This document shows positions 9,161 through 37,364 of a stretch of 64,000 bases of DNA, in pieces (within the stretch, counting starts at the first letter, position 1; each line of letters begins with the position of its first letter). The DNA is from Escherichia phage 121Q. The DNA lies in sequence record NC_025447.1; one strand, 5' to 3'. Below the pieces are notes generated by a model, which saw only the letters and a program-made list of their open reading frames with translations, did no database searches and was not told the origin of the DNA. The translations under genes and the position numbers were made by a program.

Positions 9161-9172
9161 TGGGGTCATATA

Positions 9173-10273: not shown

Positions 10274-10304
10274 AAAAAGGAGCCATGTGGCTCCTTTTTG
10301 TTTT
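10272..10304. terminator. Bidirectional rho-independent terminator
   Basis: A-run, stem GGAGCC/GGCTCC (10279-10294), T-run; sits between convergent genes. Confidence 0.6.
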
Positions 10305-10767: not shown

Positions 10768-10780
10768 AACAACACCTCCT

Positions 10781-12124: not shown

Positions 12125-13614
12125 TCTGTGTCCTTATGTATGCGATAAACAGTATTAGGTTTAACTGCGTCATGTAATGGAACTTTGTTATCACTATTTA
12201 CAAACTGTGTAAGTGCTAAGTCTGCACCTTCCCACGGTTTTCTTCCACCATAATCAAAAATAACCCATGAATTCTTAGTTGCATTGAATTCCCATAACGT
12301 AACTGGAGTATAATCGGTGCGATAGAAATAGTCACCATCTACTGCATCAGTTGGGAACATATTTCCTTCAGGGACTGTACCTCGTGCTGGTGGAATTTTA
12401 GGACGATAATCTTGTTGCGAATCAATATTACCATATACACAATTGGACGTGAATGGTTCATTGACATAAGTTACCTTTGGTTCCCCCCACTTGTCATCAT
12501 TATACTGATAAATGTGTGGTTCTTTATAAAAAATACAAAAATCTTCCACATCTTCTGGTGGAACATCACTGGTAGTATATTCTACATCACAATTTAACCA
12601 TTTTTTAGCACTTTTATCATATTGATACAACGTATAACCTGTCACATCTGCGTCATTTTCTTTAAAGAAGAAGTCACCATCCATTGGTTTTCTGGGAAAG
12701 ATGGTTCCACGCTTGACTTCCACAGAAATCCATGTATCATTAACAAACTCTTTGAGTACTGGGTATGTTTTTTTCAAAAAATACATTCCATCGGCAGGTT
12801 CTTCTGGAAAATCATAACCGTTAAGCATATATTTTGATAAATCTACTGTATCAGGTCGATCATCATACAAATGTTCATTTGTATAATGAATATAGGGTAC
12901 TTCATCATCAGCTTGCATGATGATACGGTTCATGATATCCATTTCATTGCCATAGTTACTGTTTTCCGACGAACCATCATCGGTATTTCCATTACCATTA
13001 TTAGGGTCATCTGGATTATCAGGATAATTATTGTTACCGAGTAAATCGGAGTACTCAGGTGAGTCGGTTAGCGGTTTAACTCTAAGTTTATAAATGTGAT
13101 GTTGCCACGTAACCGAGTATCCCTCAGATGTACGAAATGCATCTTGGACGACATAGAAGCGGTTTAGACCTGTATCTTTACCCAATACATCAAAATCACG
13201 TAAATTTGGTAGTTCTATCACATCCCCTGGCATGATTTTTCTACCTAAACGCTGCATCATTGTATTATAATGGATTGTGATGTCCATAGTGTTGAAATTA
13301 AAGAACAATCCTGGGATTTTCAAGTCTGGAGTTGCTTCTTGAACTTGATAGACACAACTAAGTGTGATAGCTTCAAGGTTGTAGTTTCTGTTTGGTGTGT
13401 CACCAAAAATTAAATCGCCAATACTTGACACAACTGATCCTGAAGATGTATAATCACCTCCATAGGATAAGTCAGTGTTGTCAGCAACTTGTTTTGGACC
13501 GACATATGCATAAAGCCACATGTCAACTCCACCAATGTTGTATTGTTCAGCAATGGCAGAATCAATGAACTTGTAATCATTGGTTCTACCTTTTTTCCAC
13601 ATTCTATATGTCAT
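12121..13614 (-). CDS. Hypothetical protein with low-complexity Asn/Asp/Gly/Pro segment
   Basis: ORF track starts at a TTG (13626); I prefer the ATG at 13612-13614, which has GGAGA 5 nt upstream. Contains PDNPDDPNNGNGNTDDGSSENSNYGN. Confidence 0.4.
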   Translation of the reverse strand: MTYRMWKKGRTNDYKFIDSAIAEQYNIGGVDMWLYAYVGPKQVADNTDLSYGGDYTSSGSVVSSIGDLIFGDTPNRNYNLEAITLSCVYQVQEATPDLKIPGLFFNFNTMDITIHYNTMMQRLGRKIMPGDVIELPNLRDFDVLGKDTGLNRFYVVQDAFRTSEGYSVTWQHHIYKLRVKPLTDSPEYSDLLGNNNYPDNPDDPNNGNGNTDDGSSENSNYGNEMDIMNRIIMQADDEVPYIHYTNEHLYDDRPDTVDLSKYMLNGYDFPEEPADGMYFLKKTYPVLKEFVNDTWISVEVKRGTIFPRKPMDGDFFFKENDADVTGYTLYQYDKSAKKWLNCDVEYTTSDVPPEDVEDFCIFYKEPHIYQYNDDKWGEPKVTYVNEPFTSNCVYGNIDSQQDYRPKIPPARGTVPEGNMFPTDAVDGDYFYRTDYTPVTLWEFNATKNSWVIFDYGGRKPWEGADLALTQFVNSDNKVPLHDAVKPNTVYRIHKDTE

Positions 13615-13654
13615 GATTGTCTCCAAAATAAATCGGGTATATCTTTATTTACCT

Positions 13655-13684
13655 TGTAGACAAACCGTAAGAATGTGATATAAT
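13655..13684 (+). promoter_or_regulatory. Sigma70-type promoter candidate for the ClpA-like gene
   Basis: TTGTAGAC -35-like element, 17-nt spacer, TGATATAAT with TATAAT at 13679-13684. Confidence 0.4.
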
Positions 13685-13724
13685 GTTTATTAATTAGAGT
13701 GACGTGAATCACATAGGAGAATAC

Positions 13725-16013
13725 ATGAATCTTACTCAATTGTTCAAAAAAAGCGACGAACTGGCAACATCTCTAGGTCATACATTCTTGACTATTGACC
13801 ACGTAAGTGCCACAGTACTGACTATTGATAGCATCAAGAACGTATTTGAAGATATGAACATTGATGCAGACAAACTGCACAACCGCCTGATGAACTATCT
13901 TAAAAATACAACAGTTCCACATGCACCAAAAAGTGTTAAAGATGAAGACGCGAATCGAACTTCACTTCTAGTGAATCGCGTTGTACATGAGCTTTCTAAA
14001 AAATCAGTCATTGAACAACTAAAAAGTGATGATTTTTCGATTGATGCATATTTTGTTCTATTCGAATGTCTGTCTTTCCCTAACACAGCACTAGAAGCTG
14101 CGTTAAAAGAAGAAGGTGTTAGCTGTACTGAAGCTGCACGTGCATTACAGAAACACGTTGAGTCACTTGATAAGGGTATCAACTTACAAAGTATTAATGA
14201 CGAACCGATTGGAGATAAAAAAGTGGCCCAACAGCAGCAATCATCTAAACAAAAAGGTTTGGAAGACTATACAACGAATCTAACTGCTCTTGCAAAAGAA
14301 GGCAAACTAGATCCTATGATTGGTCGCCAGAAAGAATTGTCTGCATTGATTGAGACTCTTGCTCGCAAAACCAAAAAGAATGCTATTCTCACTGGTGAAG
14401 CTGGTGTAGGTAAAACACAAATCATCGACGGGCTTGCACAAGCTATTGCTGATGGTAACGTACCTGAACACCTGAAAGACGTTGAAATTCTTTCACTAAA
14501 TGTTGGTGCATTGACTGCTGGTACTAAGTATCGTGGTGAATTTGAAGAACGCATCGACAATTTGCTAAAAGAACTAAAGAAACGTGAAAATACTATTGTT
14601 TTCATTGATGAAATTCATATTATGGTTGGGGCTGGTTCCGCAAGTAATGGTTCTATGGACATGAGCAATATGCTTAAGCCAGCACTTTCACGTGGTGAGA
14701 TTCGTGTAATTGGTGCAACAACATATGATGAATATCGTAAAAATATCGAGAAAGATAGTGCATTAACTCGTCGTTTTATGAAAATTGACGTAGTTGAGCC
14801 GACAATTGATGAAACTCGTGCAATTGTTAATGGTTTGAAACCAACGTATGAAAAATTCCATAATGTTGAGTTCACATCTGATGCAATGGATGCTGTAATT
14901 TCTCTCAGTGATAAATTCCTGAAGAATAAGCACTTCCCAGATAAAGCAATTGATCTAATGGATGCTGCTGCGGCTAAAGTTCGTTCACGTGACAACAATA
15001 GTAAGCTAATTACTGCCAATTTGATTCAAGAAGTTGTTGCTGGTATTGCCAATTTGGATATCAACGTGGTTGCATGTACTGAAAGTGATCGTATGCGTAA
15101 TCTACCAGATGCACTACGCTCACGTGTATACGGTCAAGAGGAAGCTATTCAAAAATTAGTTGATAACGTGATGGTAGCTCGTGCAGGACTGCGTGACAAA
15201 TCTAGTGTTCAGGGTGCATTTATGTTTGTTGGACCATCTGGTACTGGTAAAACAGAAATTACCAAAGCATTAGCAGACGCAACTGGTGCGGAACTCATTC
15301 GCTTTGATATGTCAGAATTTTCTCAAGAACATACTGTTTCTAAACTAATTGGTTCACCTCCAGGTTATGTTGGTCATGATTCTGGTAACGGTTTACTGTT
15401 GGATAAAATTGAGCAGTTCCCTAATGCAGTACTGTTACTTGATGAAATTGAAAAAGCAGATCGTAAAGTACTACTAACCTTCCTACAGGTTTTGGATGAA
15501 GGTCGTCTGACTGGTTCTCAAGGTAAAACTGTATATTTTAATAACGTAACTGTTATTATGACTACAAACCTTGGTGCGGCTGATTCAACAAAGCGTAGCA
15601 TTGGTATGAGCGGTAGTGACACTGCACAGGACAAGGCAATTAAAGCATTCTTGCCACCAGAGTTTATTAACCGTATTGATAGTATCGTTACGTTTAAAGA
15701 CCTAAGCAGTGAAGCTATTGACAGCATCATTGATAAGTTCATGGGTGGTTTGAATGAACAAGTCAAAGACCGTAATGTTAAAGTTACATTAACAAAAGCT
15801 GCACGTGAATGGCTTGCGAAAAATGGGGTAAAAGTTGGTATGGGTGCACGTCCAATGAAACGTACCATTGAACAAAACATTCGTGTGCCACTAGCTAAAG
15901 AAATGTTGTGTGGTTCACTTGTGAATGGTGGTAACATTACATTTGATGTTATTGATGGTAAAATCGGTATTAAGCCGAAACGTACCAAAGCTGTAGATAA
16001 AGCACTAGTATAA
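13725..16013 (+). CDS. ClpA-like AAA+ unfoldase (two nucleotide-binding domains, ClpP-docking-type IGM loop)
   Basis: Walker [10 protein letters not shown] (domain 1) and GPSGTGKTE (domain 2); Walker B FIDEIH and LLLDEIEKA; segment [10 protein letters not shown]...[20 protein letters not shown] resembles the E. coli ClpA IGL-loop region. Start moved to the ATG at 13725 (AGGAGA 5 nt upstream); the ORF-track start is a GTG. Confidence 0.85.
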
Positions 16014-16049
16014 AAAAAGAAAAGGAGAGCATAATGCTCTCCTTTTTTT
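16012..16049. terminator. Bidirectional rho-independent terminator
   Basis: Stem GGAGAGC/GCTCTCC (16024-16042) flanked by A-run and T-run, between the convergent ClpA-like and giant genes. Confidence 0.65.
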
Positions 16050-16050: not shown

Positions 16051-19000
16051 TTACTTAACTAATAATATATTTTTAATATCATTACCACTAACTTGTAGAC
16101 TATCAGTGTATACTGAAAGATCTATAGTGTAACTATTTTGTGTGTAACGTTTTAACATATCATAATTACCTAAATTAATTCCATTGAAAGAATATGTAGT
16201 ATTAAGTTTAAAATCATGTTCTGCACTATACATTACACCACGGAGTAAATTATTTGCATTTCTAACTTCAACTTTTTCATATCCAATCGATATAATATCA
16301 TTCATGTTTGCGGCTGAACCGGATAAAACATTATTTCTAATACTATAAGGACTTATTGATTTAGGTTGAGAAACATAGGTTGTATTTTCTTCACTAATGG
16401 TTGTGATGTTAGTAACAGTACCACCAACAACACCGATATACATACCGTCAACCATTGGGAATCCATAAACCCATATCCCTTCATTATTTCTAAACGGTTG
16501 AATAACACTTGAATCATATTCGATAACGTTGATTTCTAAACTATCAGTCATTTTAGTTCTTGCCAATTCACTAAGAACTCCCGCACCCGTAATTGGTAAG
16601 TTATAACCGTTATCGATAGTAATTCCATCAACATCAAATATTTCATTAGAGATTATCCAAACGTCAACGTCATCTGGTGTTATTCCGTCATTGTACTTAC
16701 CACCATTTAAAGTAGTATCGTAGAAAACATCATAATTAATTACATCAATGGTGTAATTTCTATTTTGTTCATACAATTTAATACCATTCTTGACAAATTC
16801 AGGGTCAGCAAATGTTCTAACACGAACAATGTTCAATGCTAGAGGCTGTACTGGCTCATTTTGTTGTGCAAGAGTGATGTTATCATAACGGAGAACTGCA
16901 CCAGTACTCTCATCAATCAATTCAATCGTTTCCTTACCTGTATTTCTTACAGTGAATAGGATCGGAGTTGTATTGTTTTTGATGTTAGATACACGCAAGA
17001 TTGTTTCCCATGTGTGATTTTGATATCTCACAAAATCTTCACCATCAGGAGTGAAAATCATCACCTTATCACCATCAGATAGGTCATTGTCAACTATTTC
17101 TGCTTCAGTTAAGCTATTAATAGATCTCACACGATAGAAATATTTTTCATCAAACTTCGATGTTGTTTTATTAATATCATTTTCAATCTTAGCATATGAA
17201 GGAATACTTACAATTGCTTCTGTATGTTTATATGGATTGATAATTGCCATACCTTCAGTTTGATATCTGCTGTTATCACGTAATTGTACAAGAGATACAT
17301 TGTCAAACCCATATCCATCAACTGTAAATCTAATTTGACCTACATCACGCCCAGAAGGGTTTATGTCAGATATATCCACAATATAAGGATCAACTTCATC
17401 ATCTTTAACTTCCCATTTTATTGAAGAAGTTTGAGATTCCAATGCTAGGTTATCAAATGCATTCATATCATTGAAGTACTTAGCTTCAGTAATACTATCA
17501 AGTATATATTGATAATCAGAATACATTGGATTATTTTGATCTAGTGGTAAATCATCAAGATTTATTTCAGCTAGTTCAACCATTTCACCATTTGTGATAA
17601 AATAATCTTCCATGAAATCATCAATACTTTGTTCATCAGGTATACTTTGATATACACCGTTAACATTTAAGTAAACATATTTTCGTGGAATCATTGTAAT
17701 TGCATAGATATCAATTGGGGTCTTACTAAGAATCTCTTCAGCTTTTTCGTACTTATCAGTAGCGTCTTTGTCGAATAACCCTCTCATACCTGCTAATACG
17801 TGAATAGCATCAGTATAGAAACGGGTATCACCACCTACTTCATCATAACGATAAACATATACACCATACTCAACTTCAAGTTTAACTTTTACTTCATAGT
17901 CTGATGCGTCAGGATTTTTATCTTTAATTAATGAAATGTATTTTTGATACAATTCACTGCTTATTTCAAAATATCCATAGTTATAATCATTACTAGAAGA
18001 AAAGCCTAATGGAAGTCTAGTACTAGGATTGTCATTATAAGTAAGTCCACTAAATCCACATCCAACTTCATCGTGAATTTTCTCATCACTTATATCTTTA
18101 TAAAGTTTCAAACGGTTTGCCAATGTGTTATACTGAACATATTGTCTAAGGTCAGTAAACATATCGTTATGCGTTGATTCTTTATAAACACGTTCCAATG
18201 TAGCAGTGAATTCATCAGTTGCTTCTAAATCTTCCGCATGGTCTTTATACCACTGGTTAACGCCATATGCTGTTCCTAGTGTTACATCCAATTCTGGATA
18301 GTAGATTTGCATTTGATAAGCAATAAGAAGATCGAAAGTTTCTTCACTATATTCTGGGAAAGAATATATATAACGTTGTAATTCATAGTTACTAACAGCA
18401 TCCTTTTCATTGGATTGATATTTGTTATTAACACTTACTAATTCATTTATGCTTGCCAAATCTTCATTTGGTTTACACTGAATATTATCATAATGCATAA
18501 TAATATCAATTTCTTGGAATCTTCTATTTGGTGTAACGAAATCACTTGGTAGTGAACCTACCTGTTCCCATTTTTGGGTAATTTCATTAAATTGAGCGTA
18601 CTCATAATCCCAAATATCTTTTTCAGTTTTGATCCAAGAACCGTCAACGAAAATATATCCATTAGGATCTAAATCATTACATAGACCTTTTATTAAATCA
18701 TCATCAGATGTCTTTTGCTCTATTTGTGAACGAATTTTAGTTCTATAAGGTTTAACTTCTTCAAAATATTCAACAATTTGATTAATCAAATTATCGTTTG
18801 AATAGTTTTGAACTAATGATTGTTCCAAACCAACAATATAGATATATGATGTTTTAAATACCCAATCCACAACACTTTGTTCAACATGTACATATTTGAC
18901 CATATCAAAAACAATTTCGCTTTGATGTAAATCGAAAGAATTTTTGAGTAAAGCTAGTGCTTTACGAACGTTGATTTCACGATTGCTTAGTGATCCATTA

Positions 19001-22000
19001 TCATTATGAACACTATAATCTGCGTAAAGCATATCATTGAGTTCAACTGTACTGTTTTCACGACCAATCGCTTTCCAATAAATTGAATCGCGTGATTGTG
19101 ATTTAATATACAATGTCCAAATGTTTTCACTATCGGTAACTCTGATAATATCGCCAACTTGGTAGTTTTTAGTATTAGCATCTTCTAAGCTTGACTCTTG
19201 TGTATAAGTCGTGTTACTATCATACCCAACATCATACCAATCAGCATATGACCAGTACTGAGTCATGTCCAATGAAGTTCCCAGTGATTCAACATAATCA
19301 GATTGTTTAATCATTTTATGTTGACCCTCACCTTTGTTCTCTAACGTTATAGTAACAACACTACCCGCGTTTGCTGGACTATTCATTAACTGAATATATC
19401 CATTTTCGTCGAAGTGAATAAAATAAACAGCACTAGAAGTTAATGGATTTGGTAGATATCCACTAGTACTTAAAATAACAGCGTCATTTTCTTTAAATTT
19501 ATCACTTTCAACTGCAATAACTAATTCATTATTGTAAGACAATACACGGAAAGAAACTTCATTCGGATTAACTTCAGTGGTTTTAACATTAAACACATCT
19601 TCCATAACAACACTATTAGTGGTTATGTTTTGTGACCTATAATAATTATTAGCACTTTCTACAAAGTTTCTACGAGCTTCTATAACATTTTGGAACCAAG
19701 TTTTGTTTGAACCTAAACCGTTATCAACATCTGGATATAATAAATTAATCACAGAACCTGATTCAGTTGTTTCTTGACCAATTAGTGAGTTCCACATTGA
19801 ATCCCAAATTAGTGGGTTAAAGTTATAGCTGTCACCTTCTTTACATAGTTGATACTGGTCATGTTTAACAACTTCAGTACTATCCATGTAATAAGAAACA
19901 GTTAAAATACTGGTATCATCATTCACTTTAAATTGCATATTACTAAGAATAAACGAGTTTTCATTGATTGGAGCGAACCAAGGAATGTTTAGCTGTGTTG
20001 GATCTTTAATAATACGAGCAATGTCAGTACATGATTTTGTTCTGGTATGTAGTGGTGGTACATAAATTGTATCACGTACCCAGAAATAGTATTTTGTCAC
20101 ATAACTATCAGTTGAACTATCATATTCCAAAAATGTACTATAATTATCTTCAAGTGCAGTTCCACTTGGTAGATACATAGTATTATTTTTGTTTTTCTTA
20201 GCAACATCTTTACAGTATTTGTCCCAGTTATATGGCTCAACTGGTGAACAAACCCACTCTAACACATCAATTGTACTATGTGGTAATAAACGACCCCAGT
20301 TGTAACGTTTGTATTCATTGGTTGCATCAATATCAACATTACCGTCTGCGTCATAAATTGCACGAGTATAATCCAAATAAAATGCAGTGCTAGTGTTCCA
20401 CCATACTTGACCAACTTTATCAGCACCCCAAGCCTGGATTAACTCTCCATTACTATTATACTGTGCAGGATCAACTGGTGAAGTATATGTTACGTTTTGC
20501 ATAGCCGCACCTGGAATAACACCATTAATTGGGTCATAAACGTTTAGATATAGCTCAGTAATGTTAGTACGTTCATCATATGTCGTTGGACGATCAAATA
20601 AAGTACTTTGTGGTGCTTTAAAACTATATTTCTTGTCAATGTAAGCTTGACGTTCATCAGTACTGGCAAAACGTGATACATAACGATACAAACGTGGACG
20701 TGTATCTGGATCAGTAAATTCAATATCAATAGAAGTGTCAAATGGAACTACCATAACTTTAGGATCAGAACCAGCAGTATAATATTGACTTTCTACTGTT
20801 AAAGTATCTGGCATAAAGTTAGTTTCATCAACAAAATAATAATAATCACCATCTTCAAGTGGTACATTATCAGTTAAAGTTACTTTACAAAATTGTTCAG
20901 CATACACATCGGTATTTTCAATAGGTGTTATAGAAACCATTTGCACATTAGTATCAACCAATTCAAAAATGTTCCACAAACCATTACCGTCTTTAAACAT
21001 CCACACAGATTCAGGATTTTCACCTTTACCATTAGTATAAGTTATGCGGTCATTATATGCAGTACTGAAATCTTTTGTTGTGTACGATACTTCATCCAAT
21101 GTTACTGGACCAATATCTGGAAGTTGGATGTTTTCACTTCTTCCACTACGCATTGGGAATGAGAACTTACCATTTGGACGTGTAATCCAACGAGGATCTT
21201 TACCCTGCTCACCGAAGTATACAATATGATTACCATTACCATTTGAAGTTGCATTTACATCAAAAGAAACCATTTGAGGTTGTTGTTTAAATTGGTCATT
21301 GATTAGTTTAAATTGAAGGTTTTTCTTACCATCAATATTACCATATGTACCAATTTTAAATGCCCATTCTTGTAATGCTTTATATTCATCAGTGTCATAT
21401 GATTTAGAAACACGAAGTACACGTTCTAAAACTTGGTTAGTACCTTTATCGTGAATGAATCCTTTATAGAAATCAACACGACTAACATCACTGCTAATCA
21501 TACGCTGTAGATAATCACGAGATTGATAACCAATCAAATGGTTTGACAACTCTTGTAATTGTACATCACTTACTGGAGTTTCACTATCATAATAATGTTG
21601 GAAATCCGACACTAATTTTTCAAATGATGGTAGTGTTCCAGCTTCCAAGATAATAAATCCAGGAGCTTGTAGGCGACCAGTCCATGAACCAGTAATATAT
21701 CCATACATTTTAATTAGTTCTTGAATAGAACCATATGTTGGCTGATAAATGTAATCACCAAAAATAGTTTTATCATCAAAAATAACAGCATGTTCATATG
21801 AACACAAACTTAAACGAATCAATGCAATGCGTTTATTAGATTCTAAAGTTCTAACAGTGAAGATATTTCCAATACGAGAAGTTTCAATTTCATATTGGCG
21901 AATACCTTGGTTATTATCATCAAGTAATGACCATACACCACCATTATTTTGCGTAATAGATTGTACTGAACCAAAGTCTGCCCCAAATTTAGCGTTTGCA

Positions 22001-25000
22001 GCACTTGGGGTACAAGAAATAAATTCACCAGTTACTAGAGAATTCTGACTCCAGATCACGAAATCTTTAGCAATAGTGTTCCAATCTTGTTGAGCACCAC
22101 TATCATTTACATCTTCAAAAATCCAACCATGTTCTTTAAGATATTCACCATATCCACAAATAAAAGTATAAACTTCTTGGTAACTATTGAAAACTTTACC
22201 ATATTCAATTGAAGCTTCAGACTTCCATTCATTATAATGAACAACATTACGGTTTTCCAATTTAAGAGTTACTTTTCTACCATTTTTTACGGGAAGTTTA
22301 TATTTAAATTTAGCACCAACTAGATCATATCCATCAATCTGATATGCACTACCATTCCAAGTAATTTTGATCGCACTCATTTGCTCATCACGGATATTAT
22401 TAGAACGAACAAGACCAATGGTTTGGTTTTCTTGTGAAATAAGACCGAAAGATTTAGCATTGAATGTTAGCTGATCTGCTTTAGTAAATCCTCCAATTTT
22501 ATGACCAACATTTATATAAGAAGAACGAACTACATCCCCATACTTGGTGGTAATATTTTTATTTTGATACATCAAATGGTCACTTACAAACATTTGATAA
22601 CCAATTGTTCTTGTGCTATTTTCACCATGAACTACTGTATTTTTATCAAAATTAATACGCTTACGTGTATCACCATAAAGGAATTGTGAACCATCAGTGA
22701 ATACTTCTTTTAAGTTATCATTGCGGGTATCCCAGAAATAGTTAGCAAATTGTGCTGGTTTAGCTTTATACAAAAGCATCATTTGGTCATATGCAAACAA
22801 TGTAGTGTTCATGTATGTAAATTCCATGTCACCCATATCACCATATGTCCAAGGTTCTGCTCTATGATTTAAAGATCCAGACACTAAACCTAAAATTTCA
22901 GGTGCAATATATTCAACCACACAAATATCAATACCAGAAGATGTTTTATTTCCAGTTTTTGTAATTTTGAATGGCTGTACACCAAATCTTTTATATTTGT
23001 CATATTGACCACGACGATCACCAAATAAAATAGTTCCAGTACTGCTATCGCCAATAGTTCCGTCAATATCCCAAAGACCACTAGGAACTAAATCACCTTG
23101 CTCATTCATAACAAGTGCTTCATATACATATACAACATCACTATCACGTTCACCAACTTGAACAGCCGTTGGTTCGTATTCTTGGTTCCACCAAGTTGGA
23201 CGTTGTGTAAAGCCAAACATTTCCCACGGATGGGTAGCTGGGCGATATGTACCATATTGGTCAGTGTAAATGGCACGCCATGAACCACGTGCAGGAATTT
23301 CAGTACTTTGACCATTAACTACATAATAAGTGCCAGTATAGTTCCAAGTTCTCCAATTGTTAGGATCATAATCATGTGTACTATTACTGATACCATTAGT
23401 TGCGGTGAAGTTAATGTATCCACGTAGTAATAATGTTTGTTTCTCTTCAGCACTATATTCAGTTTTAGTGAAATATGGTGTAGGGAAAAGGTCATCACTA
23501 TTCAATACTGGTACGTAATCAACATCTTTGAATTTATTATCAATACTATTAAAAATTCTATTTTCTAATTCATATACAACATCATCCATTTTATCAACAC
23601 CATTGATAACACGGTATGCTTTGGAAATAATACCAGTATGACTGATGTTATAACAGCTTGGTTTACTACCAGCAGTGAGGAATGTCGCTTTTTCTGGTAC
23701 ATATGCTTGAAGAATACCTAAGAACTGTGGTGTTGGTGGTATAAATGCACGAATGAATCCAGAAGTACTTCCAACATTATCATAATAGAATGGGAATGAA
23801 CTATCACGTCCCATATTAATAGTAGTTAAAATTGCATCAACAATGTTTGCAGCACTATTTTGTAAAAAGTCTGATGGATTTTCATCATACATACGAAGCA
23901 TTTGTGTATTAAATTTATTAATGAATCTAAAATATTCAGATTGCATAAACATAGTTGCTTCAAATAAATCAATATCTTCATTTGCAGTATGTGCCATCAA
24001 TGGAAGCATAGATGCTTCATTTTGGATAATTTTAGTACCTACGCCATTATTAACCAATCCTTTAGCCAAACGTTCTTCATAGTCATTGAAATCATCAGAA
24101 GAACCACGTGTAATGTTCTTTTGAATAATATCCTGAAAATGTAAAGTGTAGTCACCTTGGTTAATGTATATAATATTGGAATTGTATGGGTTATTTTGTA
24201 AGTTAATTGGAACTTCATATGCACCTAATTCTTTATTAGGAGTTACAGTACTGCTATAAGTTCTAATTTGAATAACTGAATCTTCATCCAAATCTACAGT
24301 GCTATCTAAGGTGATACTTTGAACTTGACCTTTTGATACATTTTTGGTATATTTTGATACATCAACACCATCAACAACAACTTCAATTATGTCAGAATCA
24401 TTATCTAAAACTTTTTGTGCTAATTCGAATGTGTGGTCATATTTTACAATCTGAACACCATCACCAGTGATTGGATGCCAGTCTAGATAAGTTTCGCGGT
24501 CTGCTTTATAGTACTGATAGGTTCTATCAACTTCAATAACATATGCATACATACCATCAACTGGTTCTTTAAAAACTTCCATATCATAAACAGTACTGAA
24601 TACACGATACATATCAGTACGTTTGACTTGTGGAGTTTGTTTTACAAATTGTTTAGAGTACTCTTCTGAACGAACCCAATCGGTTTGAAGATTCATTTCA
24701 TTATTTTCATCAATAATGTTATAATAGTATAAACCATCAATTTCAACTTCTTTTCCAAGATGGTCATAGGTATAACGTTGGGATTGTAAAAAGTTTTCAT
24801 AAATGTAATAATTATAATCACCAAGTTCAATGTTATATCCATATACACTATCAGTTGCATAGTTGTAATTTATTTTAAAACCAAACAACTCTGAACCTTT
24901 AAAGTTACTGGATGGATATGTAGTACTGTTGTCAAGTTTGATACCATTACGATCATAAAGTTGGAATTTAGGGAATATGTTAACACTAGTTTTTGATTGT

Positions 25001-26052
25001 GCACGAACCCACAAAGAACCATTCCAGTACATAGAACTGTTACCATACTCATTACCTTTGGTGATTAGAACAACATCACCATCTTGAGGTTCACCACTTG
25101 GGCGTGATTCGGTTTCTTCTTCTGGATCTAATGCCAAACCATAAACACGAGTACCATCCTGCATTTTTTTGACATATACATTATAAATTCTATTATTTTC
25201 ACCATTGTTACCAATACTGGTGAATAGAATACGCATACCATCTTGTGGAATAATACCATCAATACGGATGCCACTATTAATATCTTTTTGTACGATATCT
25301 TCAGGTTTGATTATATCTGAGAATAGATCGACAGTTCCACGGAATTTTGTACCGTAGTTAATTAGTTCAATATTTTTATTATATTCGATAATTGGAGCAC
25401 GGGCACGAATAAAGCGAGAATCTTGCATTAATTCTTCAGTTAAAATTGAACCATCTTCTAAAGTTTCACCTAAAGTATACCAAAAGTTTTGTAGTGACCA
25501 TGTATTACCATTAAGTGCACCACGTTCCATTACAATGTAATCAGGTGAAGTAATATTATAAGAGTTTTTAGTATCCCAAAGATATGAGCTAAAATTGTTC
25601 ATTTTATTTGGGTTAATAGCTGGAGTCCATGCATAAAACTTACCGTTGAACAAACGGCTTTCATTATCGGTTAGTGCTCCATAATGATTCATGTATCCAA
25701 CTAGATCATCATAAAATTGAATTGAACGAATTGTCGAATCATCATTTTTTGAGACGTAAGCAGTGGACAACTGATAAAGTTGACGTGCTACAGTACTTTC
25801 ATGTAAGAAGATATTACCAGCAGCGGCAGGAGAACCCATATCACCAATATAGCCGTCAACTAATTCGTTTTCAGCCGGATTAAACCATTGTTGAATAACA
25901 TCATCACTGACTTTTTGAATATCTTCTAAGCCTTGCATCCACTCAGGCAATCTTTTAATAAAAAGCTTCTTCTGTACTGCTTCAGCCATCTGTGTAGGTT
26001 GAAACTTAAAATTATTAGTCATTTTTGGACTCCATATAATTCGTTCATTCAT
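16051..26052 (-). CDS. Giant virion structural protein (3333 aa), probably baseplate or fiber associated
   Basis: Uninterrupted 10-kb ORF directly downstream of the gpJ/gp6-like gene in the same operon; no enzymatic motif recognised. Start is ambiguous: ATG at 26052 has no Shine-Dalgarno, the in-frame ATG at 26022 has GGAG upstream. Confidence 0.6.
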   Translation of the reverse strand: MNERIIWSPKMTNNFKFQPTQMAEAVQKKLFIKRLPEWMQGLEDIQKVSDDVIQQWFNPAENELVDGYIGDMGSPAAAGNIFLHESTVARQLYQLSTAYVSKNDDSTIRSIQFYDDLVGYMNHYGALTDNESRLFNGKFYAWTPAINPNKMNNFSSYLWDTKNSYNITSPDYIVMERGALNGNTWSLQNFWYTLGETLEDGSILTEELMQDSRFIRARAPIIEYNKNIELINYGTKFRGTVDLFSDIIKPEDIVQKDINSGIRIDGIIPQDGMRILFTSIGNNGENNRIYNVYVKKMQDGTRVYGLALDPEEETESRPSGEPQDGDVVLITKGNEYGNSSMYWNGSLWVRAQSKTSVNIFPKFQLYDRNGIKLDNSTTYPSSNFKGSELFGFKINYNYATDSVYGYNIELGDYNYYIYENFLQSQRYTYDHLGKEVEIDGLYYYNIIDENNEMNLQTDWVRSEEYSKQFVKQTPQVKRTDMYRVFSTVYDMEVFKEPVDGMYAYVIEVDRTYQYYKADRETYLDWHPITGDGVQIVKYDHTFELAQKVLDNDSDIIEVVVDGVDVSKYTKNVSKGQVQSITLDSTVDLDEDSVIQIRTYSSTVTPNKELGAYEVPINLQNNPYNSNIIYINQGDYTLHFQDIIQKNITRGSSDDFNDYEERLAKGLVNNGVGTKIIQNEASMLPLMAHTANEDIDLFEATMFMQSEYFRFINKFNTQMLRMYDENPSDFLQNSAANIVDAILTTINMGRDSSFPFYYDNVGSTSGFIRAFIPPTPQFLGILQAYVPEKATFLTAGSKPSCYNISHTGIISKAYRVINGVDKMDDVVYELENRIFNSIDNKFKDVDYVPVLNSDDLFPTPYFTKTEYSAEEKQTLLLRGYINFTATNGISNSTHDYDPNNWRTWNYTGTYYVVNGQSTEIPARGSWRAIYTDQYGTYRPATHPWEMFGFTQRPTWWNQEYEPTAVQVGERDSDVVYVYEALVMNEQGDLVPSGLWDIDGTIGDSSTGTILFGDRRGQYDKYKRFGVQPFKITKTGNKTSSGIDICVVEYIAPEILGLVSGSLNHRAEPWTYGDMGDMEFTYMNTTLFAYDQMMLLYKAKPAQFANYFWDTRNDNLKEVFTDGSQFLYGDTRKRINFDKNTVVHGENSTRTIGYQMFVSDHLMYQNKNITTKYGDVVRSSYINVGHKIGGFTKADQLTFNAKSFGLISQENQTIGLVRSNNIRDEQMSAIKITWNGSAYQIDGYDLVGAKFKYKLPVKNGRKVTLKLENRNVVHYNEWKSEASIEYGKVFNSYQEVYTFICGYGEYLKEHGWIFEDVNDSGAQQDWNTIAKDFVIWSQNSLVTGEFISCTPSAANAKFGADFGSVQSITQNNGGVWSLLDDNNQGIRQYEIETSRIGNIFTVRTLESNKRIALIRLSLCSYEHAVIFDDKTIFGDYIYQPTYGSIQELIKMYGYITGSWTGRLQAPGFIILEAGTLPSFEKLVSDFQHYYDSETPVSDVQLQELSNHLIGYQSRDYLQRMISSDVSRVDFYKGFIHDKGTNQVLERVLRVSKSYDTDEYKALQEWAFKIGTYGNIDGKKNLQFKLINDQFKQQPQMVSFDVNATSNGNGNHIVYFGEQGKDPRWITRPNGKFSFPMRSGRSENIQLPDIGPVTLDEVSYTTKDFSTAYNDRITYTNGKGENPESVWMFKDGNGLWNIFELVDTNVQMVSITPIENTDVYAEQFCKVTLTDNVPLEDGDYYYFVDETNFMPDTLTVESQYYTAGSDPKVMVVPFDTSIDIEFTDPDTRPRLYRYVSRFASTDERQAYIDKKYSFKAPQSTLFDRPTTYDERTNITELYLNVYDPINGVIPGAAMQNVTYTSPVDPAQYNSNGELIQAWGADKVGQVWWNTSTAFYLDYTRAIYDADGNVDIDATNEYKRYNWGRLLPHSTIDVLEWVCSPVEPYNWDKYCKDVAKKNKNNTMYLPSGTALEDNYSTFLEYDSSTDSYVTKYYFWVRDTIYVPPLHTRTKSCTDIARIIKDPTQLNIPWFAPINENSFILSNMQFKVNDDTSILTVSYYMDSTEVVKHDQYQLCKEGDSYNFNPLIWDSMWNSLIGQETTESGSVINLLYPDVDNGLGSNKTWFQNVIEARRNFVESANNYYRSQNITTNSVVMEDVFNVKTTEVNPNEVSFRVLSYNNELVIAVESDKFKENDAVILSTSGYLPNPLTSSAVYFIHFDENGYIQLMNSPANAGSVVTITLENKGEGQHKMIKQSDYVESLGTSLDMTQYWSYADWYDVGYDSNTTYTQESSLEDANTKNYQVGDIIRVTDSENIWTLYIKSQSRDSIYWKAIGRENSTVELNDMLYADYSVHNDNGSLSNREINVRKALALLKNSFDLHQSEIVFDMVKYVHVEQSVVDWVFKTSYIYIVGLEQSLVQNYSNDNLINQIVEYFEEVKPYRTKIRSQIEQKTSDDDLIKGLCNDLDPNGYIFVDGSWIKTEKDIWDYEYAQFNEITQKWEQVGSLPSDFVTPNRRFQEIDIIMHYDNIQCKPNEDLASINELVSVNNKYQSNEKDAVSNYELQRYIYSFPEYSEETFDLLIAYQMQIYYPELDVTLGTAYGVNQWYKDHAEDLEATDEFTATLERVYKESTHNDMFTDLRQYVQYNTLANRLKLYKDISDEKIHDEVGCGFSGLTYNDNPSTRLPLGFSSSNDYNYGYFEISSELYQKYISLIKDKNPDASDYEVKVKLEVEYGVYVYRYDEVGGDTRFYTDAIHVLAGMRGLFDKDATDKYEKAEEILSKTPIDIYAITMIPRKYVYLNVNGVYQSIPDEQSIDDFMEDYFITNGEMVELAEINLDDLPLDQNNPMYSDYQYILDSITEAKYFNDMNAFDNLALESQTSSIKWEVKDDEVDPYIVDISDINPSGRDVGQIRFTVDGYGFDNVSLVQLRDNSRYQTEGMAIINPYKHTEAIVSIPSYAKIENDINKTTSKFDEKYFYRVRSINSLTEAEIVDNDLSDGDKVMIFTPDGEDFVRYQNHTWETILRVSNIKNNTTPILFTVRNTGKETIELIDESTGAVLRYDNITLAQQNEPVQPLALNIVRVRTFADPEFVKNGIKLYEQNRNYTIDVINYDVFYDTTLNGGKYNDGITPDDVDVWIISNEIFDVDGITIDNGYNLPITGAGVLSELARTKMTDSLEINVIEYDSSVIQPFRNNEGIWVYGFPMVDGMYIGVVGGTVTNITTISEENTTYVSQPKSISPYSIRNNVLSGSAANMNDIISIGYEKVEVRNANNLLRGVMYSAEHDFKLNTTYSFNGINLGNYDMLKRYTQNSYTIDLSVYTDSLQVSGNDIKNILLVK

Positions 26053-26070
26053 TTGATTTATTTATGATAT

Positions 26071-26094
26071 AAAAAAGGCGTTCCGAAGAACGCC
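26071..26094 (-). terminator. Intra-operon terminator or attenuator hairpin
   Basis: Minus strand reads GGCGTTC-TTCG-GAACGCC followed by TTTTTT, between the stop of the 1153-aa gene and the giant gene start. Confidence 0.5.
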
Positions 26095-26101
26095 CGTTAT
26101 A

Positions 26102-29100
26102 TTAAGAACCGATATTAATATTACTTTTAGCTAGTGAGTTAACAATTTGAACATTTTCAACAGATGCAGTACTCAAAAATATTTGGTCTGAACGTGAAGG
26201 GATTTCAAATAGAGAACCAAATTTTGAATTTGGATTTTGTGCAACTATAACAATAGTACTAATATGTCTACCTAACTGTGAGTGTATGTAAGTACACAAA
26301 TCAGTATAATAGAAACTTTCACCGAAATCCCAGTTATCAACATTGAAGTATTCATTAGTTAATGCTATGACATTTTGACGAATTTCATCATCACTCATTG
26401 TGCTGTTTGGTAATTTCACTACTTTAAAATCAGCTTTGTAATCTTCAGCAGCACTGTTTCCAAATAAAGGTAAGTACTCAGCACTATGCCAAATGATACT
26501 ATCACTAATGACTATTTTTTGTTCAACATCTTTGAACATATCTTTTAATTCAACCGATGTTGGTGGTTTAGGAATACTACCAACAGCATTATTTTTCAAC
26601 CAAACGTCAACTTCAGTTTTATATGAATTGGTTAATACATACATATCAATTAAGTTTGTTCTACTAGGATCAATGCGATTGTCGTCAGGTGCATAGTGTT
26701 TCCAATGGAAGTCTATACTAGTACGTGCATTAGTTTTAACAGTGTACTGTGAAGTAACATCTTTGTATCCATAATAATCTAGCTTCTGATTCTCGTCAGC
26801 ATTAGTTCCCATGTTATTAATTGCACGATAAAAAGCCAATTCAGGACTAACAGTGCCAGTATCATCGGAATAAGTTAAATTACTAATTAGTTGTCCCAAA
26901 CGATCATTGTTATTGCCAACTGTTTGTTCAATAAAATAATATTTACCATCATAGTTAAAACCAACTAAAAATCCAGAACCTTTACTATATAATCCACTCA
27001 ATGTGGTTGAACGAATTGCGTTATTTCTAACAAATTCAGTTCTTTTATATGCATTCGGCTCTGCCAAAGCTTGTTCCATTGTATAAGACCACGATGAATC
27101 AAGAAGTGTGAAGGTATCATTTGGTAACGACAGTACTGATATAGTGAAATCACTATTTTCCTGAAATACCAAAATACCACCATATTTTAATGCATCGGTT
27201 CCAGTCCAAGTAGGAACAATTTCTTTAAATTGGTTTGGTTCCAATGGTATACCATTACTATCTACTTTCCTAGATGTAACAATAACACGAGAACCATCTA
27301 GATAGCCATTCTCTTGTTGAATTGTGTCATAAATTTGAAAATCTATATTACTTGTCAATCCTGAATTACTACTACTAGTAGTGTTAGATGATAAAATTTC
27401 AATCTTATCACTTTGAACTGTACCAGTACTTATATCAGTAATTTTTTTAGATGATACAAAGTAAAATCTTACTTTTTCTCCACCCACAAAAATATATTCA
27501 ATACCGTTAGCATCAAATTCCCAAGTTTCTGCTGTATATTTTACATTTATTATAATTAAAACTTCATTACCATTATACACAATAGTATCGTCATTAGTAC
27601 TTGCTTCGATTGGAACCCATGAAGTTGTTTCTTTATCATGTACAATTACAAAATCGGTTTTTTTATCCAACATAGCAGAAATAGACTGAACTTCAACTGT
27701 GTTAAATCTAGTTCTATATGGTAATATGTACTCTATTGCTTGCATTCCACTAGGAACAGATGTGCTTAGTACATAAAAACCATTATCTAACACACTTACA
27801 ACACTTGCCCATATCGTAGTACCAGAATTAGAAAATTTAATAAGAGTACCTACCTGATACGAACCATACACTGTTCCAGACGAACCCAAAATTCTGCCAT
27901 ATGTATTGGTTGTGTAATTTGAATTGTACACTGGAGTCCATGCTTGTTGTATTTCAATACCAATTGTATTGGATGGATACGCTTGGTAACGTTGTATTAC
28001 TGCATTTTCCCCAATCAATGGTTGAATATTGTCAATAACAATACTAGCATTTGTTTTTGTAGTTGGGAGCAATAACGATCTATTAAATTGCGTGTTTTCT
28101 TGATATAATGCACCATCATCACTAAAAACGTCGGTATTCTGATACTTACCAGTAGGATCATTGATATCAATGAACCTTGATTGACCACTATAAATTCTAT
28201 TAATAGCTTTAGATTTAAGTACTGTATTTCCTAAACTAAGTGGTGCTATATTATAATCTTCACCATTGACAAAACGGTTTTGGGTATAGTACATTTGTGG
28301 TGCACGTGCTTTAATCTGCTCAATAGTTTCAGCACTTTGTGCACGGTCGGATTCATATTGTAATGAAAAACGTATATCCAATGTACTAGATTCATAACTT
28401 GACTGTGTTTTTGTACGATATGTATATTTTACGCTTTTGTTTTGAATTTCAGAAGTTTTAATGTTATATGTTTTACCATTACTAACACGATACCATACAC
28501 GGAACGTCCCACGGGGAACAACACCACTTCTTGAGTCTGGGTACTTAATTGTTATTTGGTCTTTATCACGAGTAGTAACAGCAAAAATTGTTTTTAATTG
28601 ACGATTAACAGTGTTATATGCAATACTTTCCATTGATGGAACTTTTGTCCATTTGGTACGAACAATACCATCTTCATTTATTTCTTGAACCCATACATCA
28701 GTTTCGTTGATATTATCAACGTTAATATCTTGTATACGGTTCTCTTCACGGATAGCATATTGATAATCTTGATATGTTAATGTACCTTGTACGAAATATA
28801 CAAAAAACCCAGTATTTGGTGAGCTAAATCCATTACCATCATTTTGATAAACAATATATTTTTGCTCTTGTGGTTCTGGATGTCGTTCTTCAACACCAAC
28901 AGACGTAATATCAGGATTCACTACTTCAAATGTCATAGATTCACCATTGACAGTTGCAATAAATGGAATACTGGGTGCTGTCATTGGGATGGTGTTCATT
29001 CGATATAGTTGACGGGAGACACCATTAACATCAATACGCTTGACTGGATTACCAAATTGGTTAGTACTGACAAATGAACTGTTCATTACTAGAATAAAGT

Positions 29101-29567: not shown

Positions 29568-30332
29568 TTAATCCTTTAATAATATGTTAAAATTATCATA
29601 AAAGTACTTTTTTAGTACCGAAATATAGTCTTCATTATACTTCAATCGAAGTAAATTTATTCCATTCTCGGTGCAGTACGTGTTTTTAATTTTATCATTG
29701 TGTTGAGTTTGTTTTAGTGATTTTGTTCCACCCCAATGCTCTGAACATTGAAAATGTTGTTCACCATCATATTCGATACACAAGTTTAAATCTTCAATAT
29801 AAAAATCAAATGGCAATGTTAAAATATTCTTACAATTATCAAATCTCTTTTCTCTAACATATTTAAATGAAGATAATATATTTTCTATATCTGATACTGC
29901 CTTGGATTGAGTACTATCTCTCATACATTTTTCACACCCGTATCTACTATTCAAGTGATTATCAGGTCGCTGGTAGAATATACCATGTATTGGACAAATT
30001 ATTGATATATGTGTTTTATTATTAACATAATTAGCCATACTATAATCAAATTTATTTTTAAATTTAAAATTGGCTTTTTTCTTGAAATTTAAAAAATTAT
30101 GTGGACTTTTTTGCCTATTTGTATTATATTCAATAGAACATTTCATGCATCCTTTGCCACATGTATGGTCATTTGGTGTTTGTAGAAAAAATCCATGTTT
30201 TGCACAGCCAATCCATACTTTTGTTTTAGCATTATGATATTTAACCATACTATAGTCATATCGTATACCATGAACTTTTATCGCATTGGTTACAAATTTA
30301 TATTTTGTCGATCTAGTGGTTGCATATTTCAT
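29568..30332 (-). CDS. Homing-endonuclease-like protein: two zinc-ribbon repeats plus C-terminal PD-(D/E)XK-like motif
   Basis: 254 aa; repeats KVWIGCAKHGFFLQTPNDHTCGKGCMKC and HISIICPIHGIFYQRPDNHLNSRYGCEKC; C-terminal FDFYIEDLNLCIEYDGEQH. Inserted between baseplate genes. Confidence 0.5.
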   Translation of the reverse strand: MKYATTRSTKYKFVTNAIKVHGIRYDYSMVKYHNAKTKVWIGCAKHGFFLQTPNDHTCGKGCMKCSIEYNTNRQKSPHNFLNFKKKANFKFKNKFDYSMANYVNNKTHISIICPIHGIFYQRPDNHLNSRYGCEKCMRDSTQSKAVSDIENILSSFKYVREKRFDNCKNILTLPFDFYIEDLNLCIEYDGEQHFQCSEHWGGTKSLKQTQHNDKIKNTYCTENGINLLRLKYNEDYISVLKKYFYDNFNILLKD

Positions 30333-30367: not shown

Positions 30368-30394
30368 AAAAAGAAAAGCACTCCGAAGAGTGCT
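30368..30394 (-). terminator. Rho-independent terminator
   Basis: Stem AGCACTC/GAGTGCT (30377-30394) followed on the minus strand by a T-run. Confidence 0.5.
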
Positions 30395-30401
30395 TTTGTA
30401 A

Positions 30402-31301: not shown

Positions 31302-31337
31302 AAAGATATCCTCGTTTTATTTATAGTGCTAAAATAT

Positions 31338-37356: not shown

Positions 37357-37364
37357 TATTTATA
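37357..37364 (-). promoter_or_regulatory. T4-type late promoter TATAAATA
   Basis: Minus strand reads TATAAATA about 36 nt upstream of the ATG at 37321. Confidence 0.45.

What the first reader, a model, noticed from the sequence alone, without database searches (positions are those of the whole stretch)
16051..26052. Giant 3333-aa ORF in the baseplate operon
A single uninterrupted 10-kb ORF follows the gpJ/gp6-like gene, separated from it by a hairpin plus T-run that could act as an attenuator. Its size far exceeds typical T4 baseplate or fiber proteins and I recognised no catalytic motif. It could be a fusion of wedge and fiber functions or carry unrecognised domains. The start codon is ambiguous (26052 without Shine-Dalgarno, 26022 with GGAG).
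Basis: seen in the sequence. Interest (0 to 1): 0.65.

Follow-up and report, generated by a model that had tools for sequence, protein, structure and literature searches.

The report
Giant baseplate protein of jumbo phage
The 10-kb ORF is a real gene: it is the largest gene of PBECO4/121Q/RaK2-type jumbo phages, its product is found in purified virions, and it most likely works as an oversized baseplate wedge and scaffold subunit, although its 2,400-residue conserved core matches no solved protein fold.

Summary
The ORF at 16051..26052 (-) is intact, under purifying selection along its whole length, and 99% identical to PBECO4 gp538 and phAPEC6 gp245.

- **Already in the literature.** The product is a known "virion structural protein" of unassigned function. 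Mass spectrometry detected it in virions of phAPEC6, CBB and PA5oct.
- **Start codon.** The true start is ATG 26022, giving 3323 aa. The GGAG box, the alignment of homologues and the spacing of a T4-type late-promoter motif all agree on this.
- **Upstream hairpin.** It is a conserved terminator-like element, immediately followed by that promoter. It is therefore not simply an attenuator.
- **Family.** The protein belongs to a very large family: at least 1000 clusters at 50% identity, most of 3000-6000 aa, from jumbo-phage contigs. Residues 1 to about 2450 form the conserved core and the C-terminal part is specific to the lineage.
- **Synteny.** In 71 of 80 related loci the gene directly abuts a gp6-like wedge gene. 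That is the position held by T4 gp7, P2 gpI and TssG.
- **No detectable gp7 homology.** Profile and fold searches found no relation to gp7 or to any enzyme. The only matches were weak ones to small beta-sandwich docking domains.

Best reading (confidence 0.55): it is the positional and functional counterpart of gp7, expanded into a single-chain peripheral baseplate scaffold. Interest is moderate to low.

The parts
16051..26022 (-). Coding sequence of the giant virion protein: 3323 aa from ATG 26022, stop at 16051-16053. It equals PBECO4 gp538 and phAPEC6 gp245.
   Evidence: start codon; dN/dS
26023..26052 (-). In-frame 10-codon upstream extension (MNERIIWSPK), probably not translated.
   Evidence: It is not conserved. 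In RaK2 and XaC1 the ATGs upstream of the annotated start run into stop codons. With the promoter motif only 6 nt upstream there is no room for a ribosome-binding site.
26030..26033 (-). Shine-Dalgarno GGAG, 7 nt before ATG 26022.
26059..26065 (-). T4-type late-promoter-like motif ATAAATA (CATAAATA, 7 of 8 matches to TATAAATA), 43 nt before ATG 26022.
   Evidence: The motif occurs 20 times in the window on both strands. 15 of 42 genes carry it within 70 nt upstream, against 0.46 expected, and most copies lie at -37 to -43. The same motif is present in RaK2 and XaC1. A gp55-like late sigma factor is annotated in PBECO4.
26070..26095 (-). Intrinsic-terminator-like hairpin (GGGCGUUC-UUCG-GAACGCCU) with U-run, lying between the gp6-like gene and the giant gene.
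   Evidence: -15.2 kcal/mol, z -5.6. Its position is conserved in RaK2 and XaC1 with different stem sequences.
16020..16046 (-). Terminator-like hairpin with U-run immediately after the stop codon.
   Evidence: -16.9 kcal/mol, z -5.2; conserved in RaK2 and XaC1
25882..25998 (-). N-terminal helical segment (residues 9-47) carrying the family motif LPxxxQ-TxxxxKFFxxTxDxLFQP. It is the candidate for the helix that joins the wedge core bundle.
   Evidence: AF2 helices with pLDDT 58-81; motif conservation; lowest dN of the gene, 0.031 in codons 1-250. The bundle role is inferred.
18673..26022 (-). Conserved core of the family, residues 1 to about 2450. The blocks are 1-150, 160-460, 576-1595, 1806-2140 and 2238-2460, joined by variable linkers.
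   Evidence: AF2 models: residues 1-1200 with pLDDT 86 and pTM 0.82; residues 1201-2400 with pLDDT 74.7.
16054..18672 (-). Lineage-specific C-terminal region, residues 2451-3323. It evolves about twice as fast as the core.
   Evidence: It is found only in enterobacterial and Xanthomonas Rak2-like phages, and always as the C-terminus of this gene. dN is 0.125-0.17 here against 0.03-0.10 in the core. It is absent from distant relatives.
26102..29563 (-). gp6-like baseplate wedge gene (1153 aa), the presumed partner.
   Evidence: PHROG 10646 and PHROG 219; PBECO4 gp537 'baseplate wedge subunit'; directly upstream of the giant gene in 71 of 80 related loci
30402..30797 (-). gp25-like wedge / sheath-initiator gene, part of the same module.
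   Evidence: Pfam GPW_gp25, E 1.2e-8

Best explanation
The gene encodes a low-copy structural protein of the baseplate of an Asteriusvirus (PBECO4/121Q-like jumbo coliphage). I read it as the counterpart of the third wedge subunit: T4 gp7, P2 gpI, TssG, phiKZ gp128.

**Proposed mechanism (inferred).**
- Its conserved N-terminal helices would join the N-terminal helices of two copies of the neighbouring gp6-like protein in the three-helix core bundle. Six such wedges would surround the hub.
- The remaining roughly 2400 conserved residues would form, in one chain, the peripheral baseplate scaffold that T4 and phiKZ build from many separate proteins.
- The fast-evolving C-terminal ~870 residues would adapt that scaffold to lineage-specific fibres or to the host surface.

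**Expression (inferred from motifs).** The gene would be transcribed late from its own T4-type promoter, which sits just after a terminator-like hairpin that ends the gp6-like transcript.

**Shown:** the gene is real and constrained, the product is in virions, the synteny with the gp6-like gene holds, the family is very large, the fold is compact, mixed alpha/beta and multidomain, and there is no enzyme domain.

**Inferred:** the baseplate location, the wedge role, the copy number and the scaffold function.
For: - **Module context.** The order is gp5-like hub, lysozyme, gp25-like, gp6-like, giant gene.
- **Synteny.** In 71 of 80 diverse related loci the giant ORF abuts or overlaps the gp6-like gene; the median distance between frames is -10 nt. 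The same order is seen in RaK2, XaC1, PA5oct and Atu_ph07.
- **Precedent.** In solved baseplates the wedge is a heterotrimer of two gp6-type subunits and one further subunit, joined by an N-terminal helical bundle. Examples are A-1(L) (gp31)2-gp32 (PMC10966104) and phiKZ (gp87)2-gp128 (PMC13250141).
- **No other candidate.** No T4 gp7 homologue is listed among the T4-type core proteins of CBB (PMC5259590). No other ORF of the module matches a gp7-type family.
- **Virion presence at modest coverage.** phAPEC6 gp245 gave 17 peptides and 7.6% coverage, against 24% for the gp6-like gp244 (PMC7247149). CBB_236 gave 21 peptides and 7.7%. The PA5oct homologue EST35_0128 is flagged ESI-MS/MS in its record.
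- **N-terminus.** Residues 9-47 are helical, highly conserved and predicted with lower confidence than the rest. That is what one expects of a segment that orders only within a complex.
- **Not a fibre or tape measure.** The model of residues 1-1200 is compact (pTM 0.82) with mixed alpha and beta structure, and the protein has no internal repeats.
- **No enzyme signal.** Neither sequence nor fold searches found an enzyme domain.
Against: - There is no sequence or profile similarity to the T4 gp7 family; hhalign probability is below 1%.
- No N-terminal match to Pfam, NCBIfam or gp7-type PHROGs was found.
- No solved gp7-type chain appears among the fold-search hits.
- One sub-clade (L032, L033, L038, L047, L086) carries the giant gene with no gp6-like gene within 10 kb. 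Adjacency is therefore not obligatory.
- An uncharacterised 749-aa virion protein in the same module (34015..36264) could be the true gp7 equivalent.
- Baseplate location has not been shown experimentally for this protein in any phage.
Confidence: 0.55

Rival explanations
1. It is a peripheral baseplate or tail-tip scaffold that attaches to the wedges but is not the third wedge subunit. Another protein, for example the 749-aa virion protein at 34015..36264, would complete the (gp6)2-X heterotrimer.
For: - No homology to gp7-type proteins was found by sequence or fold.
- Some relatives lack an adjacent gp6-like gene.
- phiKZ shows that large peripheral platforms can be built from proteins distinct from the wedge (PMC13250141).
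- Uncharacterised virion proteins exist in the same module.
Against: - The near-universal direct abutment to the gp6-like gene (71 of 80 loci) matches the gp6-gp7, J-I and TssF-TssG order.
- The N-terminus is helical and is among the most constrained parts of the protein.
- No alternative candidate shows any gp7-type signal either.
Confidence: 0.3
2. It is a fusion of recognisable T4-type wedge proteins (gp7, gp8, gp10, gp11) with a tail fibre or receptor-binding protein.
For: - The C-terminal third is lineage-specific and evolves faster, as receptor-binding regions often do.
- Some metagenomic relatives carry FG-GAP propeller and chitin-binding type 3 insertions.
Against: - There is no detectable homology to T4 gp7 and no Pfam family for any wedge or fibre protein.
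- There are no internal repeats, and none of the fold hits covers more than a single small domain.
- The C-terminal region is never found as part of a separate fibre gene.
- PA5oct keeps a separate gp10-like gene downstream of its giant gene.
Confidence: 0.1
3. It is a tape-measure or internal tail protein, or a non-structural giant protein that merely co-purifies with virions.
For: Very large phage proteins are often tape measures. The mass-spectrometry coverage is low (7.6%).
Against: - The predicted structure is mixed alpha/beta, globular and multidomain, not a long helical rod.
- The gene sits between wedge genes, not next to the tube or tail-chaperone genes.
- It was detected in virions of three independent phages.
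- 3323 residues would measure a tail far longer than the ~110-130 nm tails reported for these phages (PMC3622015; PMC13070987). The residues-to-length conversion rests on my own knowledge.
Confidence: 0.03

Closest known systems
PHROG 10938 / 'virion structural protein' of Rak2-like jumbo phages (PBECO4 gp538, phAPEC6 gp245, RaK2 ORF070, CBB_236, GAP32, XaC1_312)
   Same: It is the same protein family over its full length: PHROG score 5795 bits over residues 11-3330 and 40-100% identity. Members hold the same genomic position and have been detected in virions by mass spectrometry.
   Different: Nothing is different. The window gene is a member of this family. None of the papers I read assigns the family a function.
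T4 gp7 and the third wedge subunit of contractile baseplates (P2 gpI, TssG, A-1(L) gp32, phiKZ gp128)
   Same: The gene lies directly after the gp6/J-type gene in a gp25-gp6-X module. It encodes a low-abundance virion protein with a conserved helical N-terminus.
   Different: It is 3 to 10 times larger. It shows no sequence, profile or fold similarity. The wedge interaction is untested.
Peripheral baseplate platform of phiKZ and Goslar (gp139, gp27, gp26, gp130, gp157 and homologues)
   Same: Both belong to jumbo myoviruses with an enlarged baseplate that needs an extended platform for fibre attachment (PMC13250141; Goslar preprint).
Giant homologues in PA5oct (EST35_0128, 3857 aa), Atu_ph07 (4449 aa) and SCTP-2 (3807 aa)
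   Same: They share the conserved core blocks at 27-31% identity. In PA5oct and Atu_ph07 the gene follows a gp6-like gene in the same way. The PA5oct protein is in the virion.
   Different: They have different C-terminal regions and insertions. There is no hairpin-promoter junction, because the genes abut or overlap.

Membership tests
PHROG 10938 (Rak2-like giant virion structural protein) | Full-length match to the family profile | tested here: met
   E = 0, 5795 bits, residues 11-3330 against profile positions 1-3324; 99.9% amino-acid identity to PBECO4
PHROG 10938 (Rak2-like giant virion structural protein) | Presence in purified virions | not testable with these tools
   Taken from the literature for near-identical or related phages: phAPEC6 gp245 (PMC7247149), CBB_236 (PMC5259590), and the PA5oct record note 'ESI-MS/MS'
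gp7 / gpI / TssG-type third wedge subunit | Gene immediately downstream of the gp6/J/TssF-type gene in the baseplate module | tested here: met
   Window gene order; 71 of 80 related loci show direct abutment; five loci of one sub-clade are exceptions
gp7 / gpI / TssG-type third wedge subunit | Sequence or profile similarity to a known member (T4 gp7 family; Pfam, NCBIfam or PHROG models of gp7/gpI type) | tested here: not met
   hhalign of A3 and A4 against a T4 gp7 family profile gave probability below 1%. Pfam and NCBIfam gave no hits for five N-termini. The only hit to a gp7-linked PHROG (2885) lies in an inserted domain of one relative.
gp7 / gpI / TssG-type third wedge subunit | Fold similarity to a solved third wedge subunit | tested here: not met
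gp7 / gpI / TssG-type third wedge subunit | N-terminal helix forming a three-helix core bundle with two gp6-type chains | not testable with these tools
   Only monomer prediction was available. The monomer model has conserved N-terminal helices at residues 9-47 with reduced pLDDT, which is compatible but not diagnostic.
Tail fibre / tailspike | Repetitive trimeric fibre or beta-helix architecture, or homology to fibre families | tested here: not met
Tape measure protein | Predominantly long alpha-helical protein encoded next to tube or chaperone genes | tested here: not met
   The predicted secondary structure is mixed alpha/beta and multidomain. The neighbours are wedge genes.
Intrinsic (rho-independent) terminator | G+C-rich stem-loop followed by a U-run, downstream of a gene | tested here: met
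   26095..26076: 8 pairs, UUCG loop, U6 tail; -15.2 kcal/mol, z -5.6. The position is conserved in RaK2 and XaC1 with different stem sequences. Termination activity was not tested.
T4-type late promoter (TATAAATA, gp55-type sigma factor) | TATAAATA-like motif at a fixed short distance upstream of late genes, in a phage that encodes a gp55-like sigma factor | tested here: met
   CATAAATA at 26066..26059. ATAAATA lies within 70 nt upstream of 15 of 42 genes against 0.46 expected, mostly at -37 to -43. A late sigma factor is annotated in PBECO4. The transcription start was not measured.

The most novel reading that the evidence does not exclude
The protein founds a structurally new class, an "all-in-one" baseplate. 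A single chain of 3000-6000 residues would supply both the third wedge subunit and the whole peripheral platform. Its roughly 2400-residue core would consist of folds absent from the PDB, and it would be conserved as a hallmark gene across a very large, mostly uncultivated clade of jumbo phages (at least 1000 clusters at 50% identity). Lineage-specific C-termini and insertions (FG-GAP propellers, chitin-binding modules) would tune host recognition.
Probability: 0.25. Interest if true: 0.6.

Novelty: new variant of a known kind. Interest (0 to 1): 0.35.

Why it matters
- **Structural gap.** Contractile-tail baseplates are thought to share a universal (gp6)2-gp7 wedge. No baseplate structure from the Rak2-like clade turned up in the literature and PDB searches run here, although the clade includes several therapeutic candidates against E. 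coli, Klebsiella and Pseudomonas.
- **If the reading is right.** If this protein is the gp7 counterpart, the minimal wedge subunit can expand more than tenfold and absorb the functions of a whole peripheral baseplate.
- **Marker gene.** The protein would be a convenient marker for a large clade of environmental jumbo phages.
- **Annotation.** The work fixes the start codon and the promoter-terminator layout, and it flags a confidently predicted 1200-residue region with no solved structural relative.

Tried and rejected
- **Family scans of the whole protein and five N-termini.** Pfam, NCBIfam and PHROG scans found nothing except the protein's own PHROG.
- **PDB sequence and profile searches.** Nothing matched the window protein. 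The FG-GAP and chitin-binding hits lie in insertions carried by relatives.
- **hhalign against T4 gp7.** Both the single sequence and an 18-member family profile gave no signal. A 17-residue alignment (DKMDDVVYELENRIF against gp7 718-734) looked suggestive but had probability 0.08%.
- **PHROG 2885 link.** This is a 4179-position 'baseplate wedge subunit' profile that T4 gp7 weakly hits. One relative matched it, but only through an inserted domain, so I rejected it as a bridge.
- **The search for homologous proteins with the N-terminal profile.** It returned only fragments of the same family, with no Pfam domains.
- **Structure prediction.** Full-length protein ids made the alignments too large. 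I solved this by using trimmed DNA references from IMG/VR loci.
- **Resemblance recalled from memory.** The N-terminal "LP..Q....KFF" motif resembles the N-termini of gpI/Afp12-type proteins. This was not confirmed by any model scan and is kept only as a lead.
Full report
**Observation.** The window holds an uninterrupted ORF of 3333 codons at 16051..26052 on the minus strand. At about 33% G+C, roughly 7% of random codons are stops, so an open frame of this length cannot arise by chance (my arithmetic gives about e^-250). The frame is coding throughout. Against Escherichia phage BF17 (82% nucleotide identity, identical length), dN/dS is 0.03-0.14 in every 250-codon window.

**Source and identity.** The window is 99.2% identical over the ORF to Asteriusvirus genomes: phAPEC6, SP27, G17, PBECO4 and others. 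Of 54 phage records with a match, 33 cover at least 80% of the query. The ORF corresponds to PBECO4 gp538, annotated "virion structural protein", and to phAPEC6 gp245. It matches PHROG 10938 end to end. Full-length homologues at 53-67% identity occur in RaK2, K64-1, GAP32, CBB, Serratia BF, Erwinia, Yersinia and Xanthomonas jumbo phages. Partial homologues at about 28% identity occur in PA5oct (3857 aa), Atu_ph07 (4449 aa) and SCTP-2 (3807 aa).

- phAPEC6 gp245 (381.9 kDa) was found in purified virions, with 17 unique peptides and 7.6% coverage (PMC7247149).
- CBB_236 was found with 21 peptides and 7.7% coverage (PMC5259590).
- The PA5oct homologue is flagged ESI-MS/MS in its record.
- The frame is intact in most independent assemblies. 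It is broken only in a few Salmonella phage SD-* records and in CMSTMSU.

**Start codon and flanking signals.** Five lines of evidence favour ATG 26022, which gives 3323 aa.
- GGAG lies at 26033..26030.
- phAPEC6 and BF17 are annotated from that ATG.
- In RaK2 and XaC1 the ATGs upstream of the annotated start run into stop codons.
- All relatives and the PHROG profile align from Met11.
- The motif ATAAATA, a 7-of-8 match to the T4 late promoter TATAAATA, lies at 26065..26059. That is 43 nt before ATG 26022 but only 6 nt before ATG 26052.

The motif behaves like a real promoter element. It occurs 20 times in the 64-kb window on both strands. Fifteen of 42 genes carry it within 70 nt upstream, against 0.46 expected, and most copies lie at -37 to -43. 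PBECO4 encodes a late sigma factor.

Its position is kept in RaK2 and XaC1 with different stem sequences, and in each case the ATAAATA motif follows. A similar conserved hairpin follows the stop codon at 16046..16020. The junction is best read as a terminator followed by a late promoter. I did not measure either activity.

**Family and architecture.** All residue numbers below count from Met 26022.
Nearly all are 3000-6281 aa long.
- Coverage analysis and BLAST define a conserved core at residues 1 to about 2450. Its blocks are 1-150, 160-460, 576-1595, 1806-2140 and 2238-2460, separated by variable linkers.
- The last ~870 residues occur only in the enterobacterial and Xanthomonas Rak2-like phages. 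They are always the C-terminus of this same gene, and they evolve about twice as fast as the core.
- There are no internal repeats, no Pfam family reaches its cut-off, and there is no sequence relative in the PDB.
- Many metagenomic relatives carry FG-GAP propeller and chitin-binding type 3 insertions that the window protein lacks.

**Synteny.** In the window the order is gp5-like hub with lysozyme, a small lysozyme, gp25-like, an inserted HNH endonuclease gene, the gp6-like gene (PHROG 219, N-terminal match, E 1e-20), then the giant gene.
- Among 80 diverse IMG/VR loci, 71 have a gp6-like gene of about 1150 aa directly abutting or overlapping the giant gene; the median frame distance is -10 nt.
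- Three loci have a gap of 0.8-1.3 kb, and in one the gp6-like gene is divergently oriented.
- Five loci of one sub-clade have no gp6-like gene within 10 kb. Four of them carry shorter versions of 2219-2458 aa.
- Splitting is rare. L067 carries block 2255-2454 in a separate ORF, and L036 is broken into two ORFs.

**Structure.**
- AlphaFold2 on trimmed alignments gave a confident, compact model of residues 1-1200: mean pLDDT 86 and pTM 0.82. N-terminal helices at residues 9-47 have lower confidence. They are followed by mixed alpha and beta domains, a disordered linker at 479-522, a small beta-sandwich at 523-590 and a helical domain at 600-735.
- The model of residues 1201-2400 is looser: pLDDT 74.7 and pTM 0.45.
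- Foldseek against the PDB found nothing significant; the best E is 0.31.
- No enzyme fold appeared. hhalign against a T4 gp7 family profile gave probabilities below 1%.

**Interpretation.** Solved contractile baseplates share a wedge made of two gp6-type chains and one further chain, joined through an N-terminal helical bundle. Examples are A-1(L) (gp31)2-gp32 (PMC10966104) and phiKZ (gp87)2-gp128 (PMC13250141). The genes for these subunits are classically adjacent, as in T4 gp6-gp7.

The giant gene holds that position. Its product is a virion protein of modest coverage. Its N-terminus is helical, highly conserved and under strong constraint (dN 0.031 in codons 1-250). No other gp7-like candidate is recognisable in the module.

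I therefore favour, at confidence 0.55, the reading that it is the counterpart of gp7, expanded into a single-chain peripheral scaffold. The weak similarity to fibre-docking domains and the lineage-specific C-terminus fit a role as a platform for fibre attachment.

Membership of the gp7 family in the homology sense was tested and not met. The claim is about position and probable function, not about demonstrated homology.

The main rival, at 0.3, is that the protein is a peripheral scaffold attached to a wedge that another protein completes. A literal fusion of T4 wedge and fibre proteins, a tape measure, and an artefact are all unlikely.

**Novelty and interest.** The gene itself is already catalogued and known to be in virions. 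The papers I read call it only a structural or hypothetical protein, or the largest gene. This analysis adds:
- the resolved start codon and the promoter-terminator layout;
- the size of the family;
- the map of the conserved core;
- the strong synteny with the gp6-like gene;
- a confident model with no solved structural relative.

That makes it a new variant of a known kind, a baseplate wedge or scaffold protein, and of moderate-to-low interest unless structural work shows an all-in-one baseplate.

Noticed in passing
window 29568..30332 (-): A 254-aa HNH / homing-endonuclease-like ORF is inserted between the gp25-like and gp6-like genes (PHROG 559, E 1.6e-57; Pfam DUF723). PBECO4, phAPEC6 and most relatives lack this 737-bp insertion. 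Only JP4 (97.9%) and JNE01 (83%) carry it, among 22 records that match the flanks. It is probably a mobile homing-endonuclease gene.
   Followed up: partly
window-wide, e.g. 31318..31325, 37357..37364, 26059..26065: The motif ATAAATA (the core of the T4 late promoter) occurs only 20 times on both strands. It lies within 70 nt upstream of 15 of 42 genes against 0.46 expected, mostly 37-43 nt before the start codon. This looks like a phage-wide late-promoter signal.
   Followed up: partly
window 13704..16013 (+): A ClpA/ClpB-like double-AAA+ ATPase gene (769 aa) converges on the 3' end of the giant gene. The neighbourhood is conserved in PBECO4, phAPEC6, BF17, RaK2 and XaC1. Whether it acts as a chaperone or unfoldase in assembling the giant protein is pure speculation.
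   Followed up: no
window 30374..30397 (-) and 16020..16046 (-): Further terminator-like hairpins with U-runs lie after the gp25-like gene and after the giant gene. Late genes here appear to be bracketed individually by a hairpin followed by a promoter motif. The phage G17 record annotates a 'terminator' at the gp25-gp6 junction.
   Followed up: partly
alignment A4, profile positions 723-916 and 259-304 (relatives L015-L089): Many metagenomic homologues carry an FG-GAP / integrin-alpha-like beta-propeller (E 2.7e-6 against integrin alpha-4) and chitin-binding type 3 modules. These are inserted between the conserved blocks and are absent from the window protein.
   Followed up: no
loci L032, L033, L038, L047 (2219-2458 aa) and L086 (3563 aa): One sub-clade has homologues with no gp6-like gene within 10 kb. 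Instead a 207-219-aa ORF lies on the opposite strand upstream. Four of the five homologues are shorter and end near core residue 2145.
   Followed up: partly
L007 (Salicola phage SCTP-2), gene 141, locus 1-7236 (cut): The gene upstream of the SCTP-2 giant homologue is itself about 3096 aa long (9291 bp in the record). It sits where other phages have the gp6-like gene of about 1150 aa. I did not check whether it is an expanded gp6-like protein.
   Followed up: no
L067 9968..17485 and 21066..23660; L036 4911..8963 and 8917..13950: These are rare cases where the giant gene is split. In L067 the conserved block 2255-2454 lies in a separate ORF about 3.5 kb downstream. L036 is broken into ORFs of 1351 and 1678 aa, which may be a frameshift or an assembly error.
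   Followed up: no
T4 gp7 (L009 5061..8156), residues 646-760: T4 gp7 weakly matches PHROG 2885, a 4179-position 'baseplate wedge subunit' profile, and PHROGs 17744 and 26741, all through residues 646-760. This suggests that other phages have very large gp7-type proteins, a possible precedent for giant wedge subunits.
   Followed up: partly
window 34015..36264 (-): An uncharacterised 749-aa virion structural protein (PHROG 11190) lies between the gp53-like and gp5-like genes. It could be a hub (gp27-type) protein or an alternative wedge component.
   Followed up: no
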